From: a plasmid
NCBI RefSeq assembly: GCF_058153355.1
Contig: NZ_JBLWLY010000002.1
Reading direction: 5' to 3' (one strand)
Length of the DNA: 64,000 bases
Positions within the stretch are counted from its first letter, which is position 1. Every line of letters begins with the position of its first letter. A model generated the notes under the pieces. That model saw only the letters and a list, made by a program, of their open reading frames with translations. It had not been told where the DNA came from and did not search any database. Below, one piece after another: positions 60,226 through 61,174 of this stretch. Both the position numbers and the translations under genes were made by a program.

Positions 60226-60444
60226 ATGCATACCTTTATTTTTCTTGTGCTGATGAAAAATGTTGGCGGTGGTGGTATCTGGAATATTACACCTATGCCA
60301 AATACGGATGTATGTGTACAGATCCTTCGGAGAGTCGAAGCGCGTGGAGGCAGGGGATTAGGAAATATAGGGGAGTGTATTGAAGTTAAAACAAATGAAC
60401 CTTTGAACAACGTGATGGAAACACTGAATGGTGGTAGGCTATGA
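60226..60444 (+). CDS. hypothetical small protein
   Basis: 72-aa ORF, low-GC. Confidence 0.35.
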   Translation: MHTFIFLVLMKNVGGGGIWNITPMPNTDVCVQILRRVEARGGRGLGNIGECIEVKTNEPLNNVMETLNGGRL

Positions 60445-60845
60445 GTGCTTACTACTTCGAAGGAAATAATATCGACTGGTTTATATGCCTGTGCCTCTTT
60501 CTTGTGGTTATCTGTGTTGTTAACGCACTGGCTATGTTTGTTATCCCTGAAAAATTCAGTCTGCAGGTCAGCAGAGGAAAAACATTAGCTTGTAGTGCGC
60601 TTATTGGGTGTTTTTCTTTTATTACGCTTGTTGTGTTCGCCAGTCAGTCATTCACGATGGATGAACTGGATGTCGGGAGATACTGGAAAAATGACTGTAA
60701 ACTTCTGGAAGTGAATATATCGACAGGCGCATTTACTGAACCGGTTAATAAACTGGACTGTGCCGGAGTCATCGTTAATGTGCCAGTGGCTCAGTATGAG
60801 GAGTATATCCGACAGTGGGAATTATATAAGGCTAAAATGAAATGA
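60441..60845 (+). CDS. hypothetical membrane protein
   Basis: 134 aa with two hydrophobic segments; start overlaps upstream stop. Confidence 0.45.
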   Translation: MSAYYFEGNNIDWFICLCLFLVVICVVNALAMFVIPEKFSLQVSRGKTLACSALIGCFSFITLVVFASQSFTMDELDVGRYWKNDCKLLEVNISTGAFTEPVNKLDCAGVIVNVPVAQYEEYIRQWELYKAKMK

Positions 60846-61174
60846 AGTCGATATATTTAAAATCTGTTCTGGCTTTTATATTTGTTGGCGTTATGGCTAT
60901 GTTGATATGTGGTCTTTTTTACAATGATTACCTTGAGCAACAACCAGCAACACCAGAACAACTGACAGAAATTGCTCAGGATACCCCCTGTGCAGCAGAA
61001 GCATTTAAGGAAGCTATTAAGTCTGACGCCTCTGATTATCAGTCTGAACCTTTAAGTCTTGGTAAGGCAAAAGAGCTTGCATCAGCGTGTAGGGAAAGAA
61101 ATGAAATGGCAGAGGTGAAACGGGTAAGAGAAAATGAGCGCAATAAGATACGCGAAAAACAACTTCAGGCGTAA
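60842..61174 (+). CDS. hypothetical membrane-anchored protein, 3' end possibly cut by IS66
   Basis: 110 aa; stop codon taa lies within the first bases of the IS66 terminal repeat at 61171. Confidence 0.45.
   Translation: MKSIYLKSVLAFIFVGVMAMLICGLFYNDYLEQQPATPEQLTEIAQDTPCAAEAFKEAIKSDASDYQSEPLSLGKAKELASACRERNEMAEVKRVRENERNKIREKQLQA

What the first reader, a model, noticed from the sequence alone, without database searches (positions are those of the whole stretch)
60226..61174. Three translationally coupled small ORFs of low GC between the tra genes and an IS66 insertion
Three ORFs with overlapping stop/start codons, two with hydrophobic segments, occupy the variable interval after traR. The last one ends at a stop codon provided by the IS66 terminal repeat, so it may be truncated. 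The composition differs from the tra genes, indicating acquired cargo of unknown role.
Basis: seen in the sequence. Interest (0 to 1): 0.45.

Follow-up and report, generated by a model that had tools for sequence, protein, structure and literature searches.

The report
Conserved small tra-operon genes, IS66-clipped
The three small overlapping genes are real, but they are old, widely shared and uncharacterised membrane or periplasmic accessory genes of F-like conjugation operons, not recent cargo, and here the last one and the rest of the transfer operon have been cut off by an IS66 insertion sequence.

Summary
ORF1 (60226-60444, 72 aa), ORF2 (60441-60845, 134 aa) and ORF3 (60842-61174, 110 aa) are joined by ATGA overlaps. 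They are 40-42% GC, against 52-57% for traK, traB and traV. ORF3 ends in a TAA supplied by a 2,540-bp IS66-family element (61171-63710), and intact relatives carry 10 more codons followed by traC.

The "acquired cargo" reading does not hold. The same trio sits just upstream of traC in E. coli and Klebsiella F-like plasmids, with tblastn matches in about 2,500-2,800 PLSDB plasmids. dN/dS between the two lineages is 0.15-0.36. Plasmid F lacks the genes because of a deletion that left a yfhA stub.

Some databases name ORF3 relatives YfiC. ORF2 has two transmembrane helices and a C-terminal domain of about 60 aa (helix, three strands, helix) with two invariant cysteines. This domain has no Pfam, NCBIfam, PADLOC or PHROG match and no PDB fold match. 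Related copies recur in other F-type tra operons, and Klebsiella plasmids carry four.

The most likely role is a dispensable envelope accessory module of the F-type secretion system, surviving here as a relic in a truncated tra region. No function has been tested. Overall this is an ordinary finding with a modest lead in ORF2.

The parts
59053..59274 (+). traR (73 aa, DksA/TraR zinc finger), the last named tra gene before the accessory block
   Evidence: Pfam PF01258, E = 6e-13. Annotated traR in relatives.
59267..59680 (+). yfhA-like ORF, copy 1 (137 aa, hydrophobic core plus helical C-terminus). It overlaps the end of traR.
   Evidence: The exact sequence is in a cluster in which some members are named YfhA.
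59673..60146 (+). yfhA-like ORF, copy 2 (157 aa), a tandem paralogue of copy 1 (about 77% nt identity)
60226..60444 (+). ORF1, 72 aa. Short invariant hydrophobic N-terminus (MHTFIFL) and two cysteines conserved in most relatives (C30, C51). Possibly a small exported periplasmic protein.
   Evidence: dN/dS against Klebsiella is 0.15-0.22. No family match.
60441..60845 (+). ORF2, 134 aa. Two transmembrane helices plus a C-terminal domain (residues about 70-134: helix, three strands, helix) with two invariant cysteines (C86, C107).
60842..61174 (+). ORF3 (relatives are named YfiC in some databases), truncated. 110 of 120 codons remain. N-terminal membrane anchor, helical domain with two conserved cysteines, charged C-terminal helix. 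The final Ala codon and the TAA stop straddle or lie inside the IS end.
61171..63710 (-). IS66-family element (ISCro1/ISEc8-like), 2,540 bp, with 61-bp perfect terminal inverted repeats. tnpC 61201-62772, tnpB 62792-63139, tnpA 63136-63564. No 8-bp target duplication.
63711..63729 (-). 19-bp terminal fragment of a second, different IS66-family element, abutting the first IS

Best explanation
ORF1-3 are three genuine, conserved, non-essential genes of the F-like tra operon. They occupy the accessory interval between traR (plus the yfhA-like ORFs) and traC.

Inferred expression and location:
- They are probably co-transcribed with the pilus and secretion genes. The 5' gene has its own GGAG, and the next two starts are read by ATGA termination-reinitiation.
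- All three products are predicted to go to the cell envelope. ORF1 would be a small exported protein. ORF2 would be a two-helix inner-membrane protein with both termini and its 60-aa two-cysteine domain in the periplasm. ORF3 would be an N-in/C-out anchored helical protein.
- Each carries one conserved cysteine pair, as expected for disulfide-stabilised periplasmic domains.

Inferred role: they most likely modulate or protect the envelope-spanning F-type secretion and pilus apparatus, as other small dispensable envelope proteins of the operon (for example TrbI and TraP) are reported to do. They are not needed for DNA transfer itself.

In this window the module is a relic. An IS66-family element removed the last 10 codons of ORF3, and an associated rearrangement removed traC and everything downstream from this position.
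For: Shown by the sequence and searches:
- Coordinates, overlaps and truncation.
- The same gene order directly upstream of traC in E. coli plasmids and in Klebsiella/Raoultella plasmids, at 65%, 63% and 42% amino-acid identity for ORF1, ORF2 and ORF3.
- tblastn matches in 2,558 (ORF2) and 2,818 (ORF3) PLSDB plasmids, over 96% of them typed conjugative.
- Purifying selection across lineages, dN/dS 0.15-0.36.
- No promoter-like or + strand terminator-like site from the end of the yfhA-like ORFs to the ORF2-ORF3 junction, apart from one weak promoter-like match at 60809-60838. No Rfam match.
- Distant ORF2-domain members lie inside other F-type tra operons, in L019 and L024. Their cluster mates are from Providencia and Morganella.
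- A confident ORF2 model, pLDDT 91 for the full length and 95 for the domain alone.

Evidence for dispensability:
- F has traR followed directly by traC and keeps a yfhA stub.
- Many plasmids lack ORF2, or both ORF2 and ORF3.

Inferred only: topology, from hydropathy and the positive-inside rule. The ORF2 inter-helix loop has K/R/K while its N-terminus has no positive residue. The cysteine pairs are conserved.
Against: - No experimental or literature evidence exists for expression, localisation or any phenotype.
- ORF1's N-terminal hydrophobic stretch is short and lacks a basic n-region, so export is uncertain.
- No homology or fold similarity to any T4SS component or any solved structure.
- ORF2 relatives also occur outside tra operons, next to PIN, RES and HNH genes on large plasmids. 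A role independent of the T4SS is therefore possible.
- Frequent loss and moderately relaxed dN/dS would also fit a weakly selected passenger.
Confidence: 0.5

Rival explanations
1. The trio, or at least ORF2 and its paralogues, is a protective or exclusion module rather than a machine part. Membrane-anchored periplasmic decoys or blockers would be expressed together with the pilus. They would limit a liability of being a donor, such as entry of pilus-dependent phages, redundant incoming transfer, or envelope damage.
For: - The ORF2 domain is multi-copy in Klebsiella plasmids, on different membrane anchors (four paralogues in L007), and tandem in a Morganella-type operon.
- A chimeric paralogue exists (P0148).
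- The gene is repeatedly lost and dN/dS is about 0.3.
- Stand-alone homologues sit in accessory islands beside PIN7, RES and HNH genes.
Against: - No match to any PADLOC defence model or to any annotated PHROG exclusion family at a meaningful E-value.
- No structural match in the viral library.
- By established knowledge, F-like plasmids already encode TraS and TraT for exclusion.
- No phenotype data exist.
Confidence: 0.25
2. The ORFs are recently acquired cargo unrelated to conjugation. On this view they were inserted into this plasmid's variable region and are marked by foreign base composition.
For: GC is 40-42% against 52-57% for the core tra genes, and the interval varies between plasmids.
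Against: - Position and order are identical in E. coli and Klebsiella lineages whose synonymous divergence is near saturation (dS 0.7-1.8).
- The GC dip is shared by traR and by the Klebsiella copies.
- F is a deletion derivative.
- No mobile-element boundary flanks the trio on its 5' side.
Confidence: 0.07
3. The ORFs are decaying, functionless reading frames in a broken tra region. They would be of no consequence in this plasmid or in general.
For: - In this window ORF3 is clipped and traC is absent downstream.
- In pOkiPb01701_2 ORF1 and ORF2 are frameshifted and ORF3 carries an independent IS66 insertion.
- Deletion and fusion variants exist: P0151, P0203 and the ORF2 deletion in L025.
Against: - In this window ORF1 and ORF2 are intact and match database proteins exactly.
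- Family-wide length conservation and dN/dS well below 1 argue for function in intact plasmids.
Confidence: 0.15

Closest known systems
YfhA/YfiC-named hypothetical ORFs of the traR-traC interval in F-like plasmids (YfhA is traced to R100 in PMC2762410)
   Same: ORF3 is 92% identical over its full length to a database cluster whose UniRef name is 'YfiC protein'. The upstream paralogues fall in a cluster containing proteins named YfhA. PMC2762410 reports that YfhA follows traR in R100 and has no similar ORF in F.
   Different: This copy of ORF3 lacks its last 10 codons. ORF2 is absent from most E. coli-type F-like plasmids that carry ORF1 and ORF3. None of these ORFs has a published function.
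Small non-essential envelope proteins of the F tra operon (for example TrbI, TraP and other Trb proteins)
   Same: They are short, sit on the tra strand among the pilus and secretion genes, are predicted to be membrane or periplasmic, and are dispensable for transfer, since F lacks them.
   Different: There is no sequence or profile similarity to any of them. The comparison is by analogy of size, location and dispensability only. What those F proteins do is taken from established knowledge and was not tested here.
Entry-exclusion proteins of conjugative elements (F TraS, SXT/R391 Eex)
   Same: Small inner-membrane proteins encoded within transfer operons. The ORF2 family shows varied anchors carrying a conserved C-terminal module.
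   Different: There is no homology. The location differs, since by established knowledge traS lies next to traG and traT. The ORF2 domain is predicted to be periplasmic and disulfide-bonded. Exclusion activity has not been tested.
COMM-domain / PUR-repeat-like small beta-beta-beta-alpha modules
   Same: These are the weak top structural neighbours of the ORF2 domain. Both have three antiparallel strands packed by a C-terminal helix.

Membership tests
traR-traC interval accessory ORFs of F-like plasmids (YfhA/YfiC-named set) | Encoded on the tra strand between traR and traC | tested here: met
   The 5' side is met in the window. traC follows at about 125 bp in intact relatives L001, L002, L026 and L027. 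In the window itself traC has been replaced by the IS.
traR-traC interval accessory ORFs of F-like plasmids (YfhA/YfiC-named set) | Sequence homology to proteins named YfiC (ORF3) or YfhA (upstream ORFs) | tested here: met
   The intact ORF3 relative from L001 (97% identical to the window's ORF3) is 92% identical to the cluster named 'YfiC protein'. The exact upstream ORF sequence lies in a cluster containing proteins named YfhA.
ORF2 C-terminal two-cysteine domain family (unnamed, not in Pfam) | One to four N-terminal hydrophobic helices followed by a C-terminal domain of about 60 aa with the pattern G-x-[HY]-[WY]..C..E.N[IV]..G..(5-6)N[KR]L.C...[IV].[NH][VI]....Y | tested here: met
   Alignments A4, A5 and A6 show that both cysteines are invariant. 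A profile search of 1.84 billion representatives returned 79 hits at E <= 1e-3; the 44 retrieved have the domain after N-terminal hydrophobic segments, at the C-terminus in all but two longer proteins.
ORF2 C-terminal two-cysteine domain family (unnamed, not in Pfam) | Periplasmic location and a disulfide between the two cysteines | not testable with these tools
   This is inferred only from the positive-inside rule and cysteine conservation.
Entry-exclusion proteins (TraS / Eex) | Homology to TraS or Eex, or location beside traG and traT | tested here: not met
   No Pfam, NCBIfam or PHROG match. The genes lie upstream of traC.
Entry-exclusion proteins (TraS / Eex) | Reduces DNA entry from donors carrying the cognate system | not testable with these tools
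   This needs mating assays.
Known anti-phage defence systems (PADLOC-DB) | Match to a defence-protein model | tested here: not met
   No hits for ORF1-3. The yfhA-like ORFs gave only E = 0.007-0.03 noise.
IS66 family insertion sequence (the flanking element) | Three ORFs (tnpA, tnpB, tnpC) and terminal inverted repeats beginning GTAAGCG | tested here: met
   ORFs of 142, 115 and 523 aa on the minus strand. 61-bp perfect inverted repeats. A homologous element is annotated as ISCro1 family.
IS66 family insertion sequence (the flanking element) | 8-bp target-site duplication from simple insertion | tested here: not met
   The flanks are CTTCAGGC and GTTTAAAT. The right flank is the end of another IS66-family element followed by an autotransporter gene, not the rest of ORF3. 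This indicates a rearrangement after insertion.

The most novel reading that the evidence does not exclude
ORF2 and its paralogues would define a previously undescribed, Enterobacterales-restricted family of membrane-anchored, disulfide-stabilised periplasmic domains. The family would be specifically recruited to F-type conjugation operons, with up to four copies per operon in Klebsiella IncFII(K)-type plasmids. It would act, possibly together with ORF1 and ORF3, as a new class of T4SS modulator or donor-protection factor, for example against pilus-dependent phage or envelope damage.
Probability: 0.2. Interest if true: 0.55.

Novelty: new member of a known kind. Interest (0 to 1): 0.3.

Why it matters
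F-like plasmids are major carriers of resistance and virulence genes in E. coli and Klebsiella, yet their transfer operons still contain conserved genes nobody has studied.

ORF2's domain has tblastn matches in about 2,500 sequenced plasmids, mostly conjugative Klebsiella plasmids, and has no Pfam, NCBIfam, PADLOC or PHROG match and no PDB fold match. If it tunes or protects the conjugation machinery, it would be a new handle on plasmid spread.

For this particular window the significance is smaller. It documents one more IS66-mediated truncation of a tra operon on what looks like a mosaic virulence plasmid.

Tried and rejected
Searches that found nothing:
- Pfam, NCBIfam, PADLOC and PHROGs scans of all five small ORFs gave nothing above noise. 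A Pfam scan of 50 ORF2-family members gave only spurious transmembrane hits.
- PDB sequence-profile searches with the ORF1, ORF2-domain and ORF3 alignments found nothing meaningful.
- AFDB50 Foldseek was unavailable.
- Eight literature searches found no functional study (and reading PMC5102898). Only the pEntH10407 paper names YfhA and notes ISEc8 insertions after traR.
- Pfam on neighbours of the non-tra ORF2 homologues (L017, L020) gave no clues.
- An Rfam scan of 58900-61300 found nothing.

Ideas considered and rejected:
- Lipoprotein status for ORF3. There is no lipobox, because the residue before Cys23 is Ile or Val, and the Klebsiella homologue lacks that Cys.
- A toxin-antitoxin reading. 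There is no family match, and the genes occur separately in many plasmids.

The exact source plasmid was not found in PLSDB or among the complete RefSeq E. coli genomes. A draft contig, L028, is 100% identical up to the IS edge.

Full report
**Observation**

The window between 58.4 and 61.2 kb is the proximal part of an F-like tra operon.
- traV is at 58403-58918.
- traR is at 59053-59274 (Pfam zf-dskA_traR, E = 6e-13).
- Two tandem hydrophobic ORFs follow at 59267-59680 and 59673-60146.
- After an 80-bp gap come the three ORFs of the finding: ORF1 at 60226-60444 (72 aa), ORF2 at 60441-60845 (134 aa) and ORF3 at 60842-61174 (110 aa).

Both junctions within the trio are 4-nt ATGA overlaps.

ORF2 has two strongly hydrophobic 19-mers and ORF3 has one. 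ORF1 has only a nine-residue hydrophobic N-terminus.

GC content is 0.42, 0.41 and 0.40 for ORF1, ORF2 and ORF3. The ORF at 55611-56348 (probably traK), traB and traV are 0.57, 0.56 and 0.52. traR (0.43) and the two upstream ORFs (0.44-0.45) share the dip.

A consensus scan found no promoter-like or + strand terminator-like site from the end of the yfhA-like ORFs to the ORF2-ORF3 junction, apart from one weak promoter-like match at 60809-60838. There was no Rfam match.

**The IS junction**

Homology to every related plasmid ends at 61170.

From 61171 to 63710 lies a 2,540-bp IS66-family element.
- It has 61-bp perfect terminal inverted repeats beginning GTAAGCGG.
- tnpC, tnpB and tnpA are on the minus strand.
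- PGAP labels a homologous copy "ISCro1 family".

The TAA that ends ORF3 (61172-61174) lies inside the IS. Intact relatives continue ...QLQALNDAPSAKEH, giving 120 aa, or 115 aa in a shorter allele. Ten codons are therefore lost, including an ALND motif that is conserved even in the 42%-identical Klebsiella homologue.

The 8 bp on either side of the IS differ (CTTCAGGC and GTTTAAAT). The right flank is a 19-bp end of a different IS66-family element, followed by the 3' end of an autotransporter gene on the other strand. The IS event was therefore followed by a rearrangement that removed the ORF3 tail, traC and the distal tra genes from this position. No ORF of traC, traD or traI size exists anywhere in the window.

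A draft contig (L028) is 100% identical to window 57000-61168 and stops at the IS edge. L027 is 98.8% identical and has the intact 120-aa ORF3 followed by traC.

**Conservation, and why this is not recent cargo**

In intact E. coli plasmids (NZ_CP076712, p417H-90 and others) the order is traV, traR, two hypothetical ORFs, ORF1, ORF2, ORF3, traC.

In Klebsiella/Raoultella F-like plasmids the same trio lies immediately upstream of traC.
- The sizes are 73 aa, 134 aa and 106 aa, with an ATGA overlap between the first two.
- Amino-acid identity to the window is 65%, 63% and 42%.

tblastn finds ORF2 in 2,558 PLSDB plasmids: 2,339 from Klebsiella, 78 from Escherichia, and 2,473 typed conjugative. 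It finds ORF3 in 2,818 plasmids.

Nei-Gojobori dN/dS between the E. coli and Klebsiella copies is 0.15-0.22 for ORF1, 0.32-0.36 for ORF2 and 0.27-0.36 for ORF3, with dS of 0.7-1.8. These are therefore real genes under purifying selection.

The block is modular.
- Most E. coli, Shigella and Klebsiella IncFII plasmids carry ORF1 and ORF3 without ORF2.
- Some carry ORF1 alone.
- F has traR followed by traC after about 160 bp.

BLAST of the F interval shows that F retains about 110 bp of the first upstream ORF. Homology then resumes about 15 bp before traC, so F is a deletion derivative.

The low GC is shared by the Klebsiella copies, at 0.38-0.44 against 0.53 for traC. Together these points contradict the idea of cargo acquired by this plasmid. 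The block is an old, optional segment of the operon.

**What the proteins are**

None of the three matches Pfam, NCBIfam, PADLOC or PHROGs. All database names are "hypothetical", except that ORF3 relatives are sometimes called YfiC and the upstream ORFs YfhA. The pEntH10407 paper states that YfhA follows traR in R100 and has no similar ORF in F, and it describes ISEc8 insertions there (PMC2762410).

ORF2 is the most informative of the three.
- Its C-terminal 65 residues are shared by three further ORFs in the Klebsiella interval. These are 94, 159 and 94 aa long and have different numbers of hydrophobic helices.
- A profile of this domain, searched against 1.84 billion representative proteins, found only 79 hits. 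The retrieved ones are mostly 60-200 aa and have one or more hydrophobic N-terminal segments followed by the domain.
- The two cysteines are invariant.
- Named members come only from Enterobacterales: Morganella, Providencia, Pectobacterium, Salmonella and Klebsiella.
- Two distant members lie inside other F-type operons. L019 has traL-E-K-B, several small ORFs, then the member. L024 has traM to traB, two tandem paralogues, then traV and traC. Their cluster mates are from Providencia and Morganella.
- Others lie on large plasmids beside PIN7, RES and HNH genes.

AlphaFold2 gives a confident ORF2 model, with pLDDT 91 for the full length and 95 for the domain alone. It shows two long transmembrane helices, then a helix, a three-stranded antiparallel sheet and a long C-terminal helix.

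**Inferred topology**

- *ORF2.* The N-terminus has no basic residue. The inter-helix loop carries Lys, Arg and Lys. Both termini and the two-cysteine domain are therefore predicted to be periplasmic (positive-inside rule).
- *ORF3.* Lys2 and Lys7 precede its single hydrophobic helix. The rest is polar and helical, with two conserved cysteines, which predicts an N-in/C-out anchor.
- *ORF1.* It has an invariant MHTFIFL start, a Gly/Ser-rich segment and two cysteines conserved in most relatives. A short signal peptide is possible but unproven.

These are inferences and have not been demonstrated.

**Mechanism**

The best-supported reading (confidence about 0.5) is that the trio is a dispensable envelope module of the F-type secretion and pilus operon. 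It would be co-transcribed with the operon and translationally coupled, and it would modulate or protect the apparatus, in the manner of the small non-essential envelope proteins already known in that operon.

The main rival (about 0.25) is a donor-protection or exclusion role. This is suggested by paralogue expansion, a chimeric paralogue (P0148), recurrent loss, and stand-alone copies in accessory islands.

"Recent cargo" (about 0.07) is contradicted by synteny.

"Functionless relic" (about 0.15) may describe this particular copy, but not the family.

In this window the T4SS is truncated, so any T4SS-linked role is moot. pOkiPb01701_2 shows a parallel decay, with ORF1 and ORF2 frameshifted and an independent IS66 insertion at a different ORF3 codon.

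**Novelty and verdict**

The sequences are catalogued thousands of times as hypothetical proteins, and one carries a legacy name. The finding is therefore an ordinary instance of known but uncharacterised tra-operon accessory genes, clipped by an IS.

The modest lead is the ORF2 domain. It belongs to a compact family that has no Pfam, NCBIfam, PADLOC or PHROG match and no PDB fold match, recurs in F-type operons, and is abundant in Klebsiella conjugative plasmids.

Interest is 0.3.

Noticed in passing
window 4476, 30094-30122, 43115, 61171, 63682-63710: There are five IS66-family termini in the window. The copy starting at 43115 is identical to the 61171 element for about 1,800 bp and has the same orientation. 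The leading region and proximal tra genes (about 45-61 kb) are therefore bracketed by two direct IS66 copies, which suggests IS-mediated mosaicism or a composite unit.
   Followed up: partly
window 63711-63729: A 19-bp terminal fragment of a different IS66-family element (GTAACCGACTCATTTAAAC on the minus strand) directly abuts the intact IS. The same end sequence flanks the 3' remnant of ORF3 in pOkiPb01701_2.
   Followed up: partly
window 63873-64000 (minus strand), hairpin about 63838-63862: This is the 3' end of an autotransporter beta-barrel gene (...NANFRYSF*) with a GC-rich terminator hairpin. It is about 91% identical to autotransporter genes on many E. coli plasmids, which suggests a virulence-plasmid context.
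   Followed up: partly
window 59267-59680 and 59673-60146: Two tandem yfhA-like paralogues, about 77% nt identical to each other, each have a hydrophobic core and a conserved helical C-terminus (LSRQ.LL.LMRLTEDVPD.RQELLNRLLSGKKLTGRDE.DIRRLW). They overlap the stop of traR and each other, and have no family match.
   Followed up: partly
L003 (plasmid F) 3583-3741: The traR-traC spacer of F retains about 110 bp homologous to the 5' end of the yfhA-like ORF. The classic F plasmid is therefore a deletion derivative of the longer arrangement.
   Followed up: yes
L007 2505-3667 (Klebsiella/Raoultella plasmid): Three extra ORFs (94, 159 and 94 aa) between traV and the trio carry the same two-cysteine C-terminal domain as ORF2 on different membrane anchors. 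That makes four copies of the domain in one operon.
   Followed up: yes
L010, L011, L017 (large plasmids, e.g. CP031818.1): ORF2 homologues (51% identity in L010/L011; about 31% for the L017 member) occur alone, outside any tra operon. They sit among unannotated small genes near PIN7, RES and HNH-domain genes. In L017 the homologue overlaps, by ATGA, an upstream 239-aa ORF of unknown family.
   Followed up: partly
database proteins P0151, P0203, P0148; locus L025 4216-4323: Natural deletion and fusion variants exist: an ORF2-ORF3 fusion, a fusion of the TraV signal peptide to ORF3, a chimera of a 94-aa paralogue with the ORF2 domain, and a 35-aa ORF2 stub. The interval is recombinationally active.
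   Followed up: partly
L006 (pOkiPb01701_2) 5821-10220: An independent IS66-family insertion sits at a different codon of ORF3, about 20 codons upstream of the window's site. ORF1 and ORF2 are frameshifted there, while traC is retained downstream. Together with ISEc8 in yfhA of pEntH10407, this shows recurrent IS66-family hits in this interval.
   Followed up: partly
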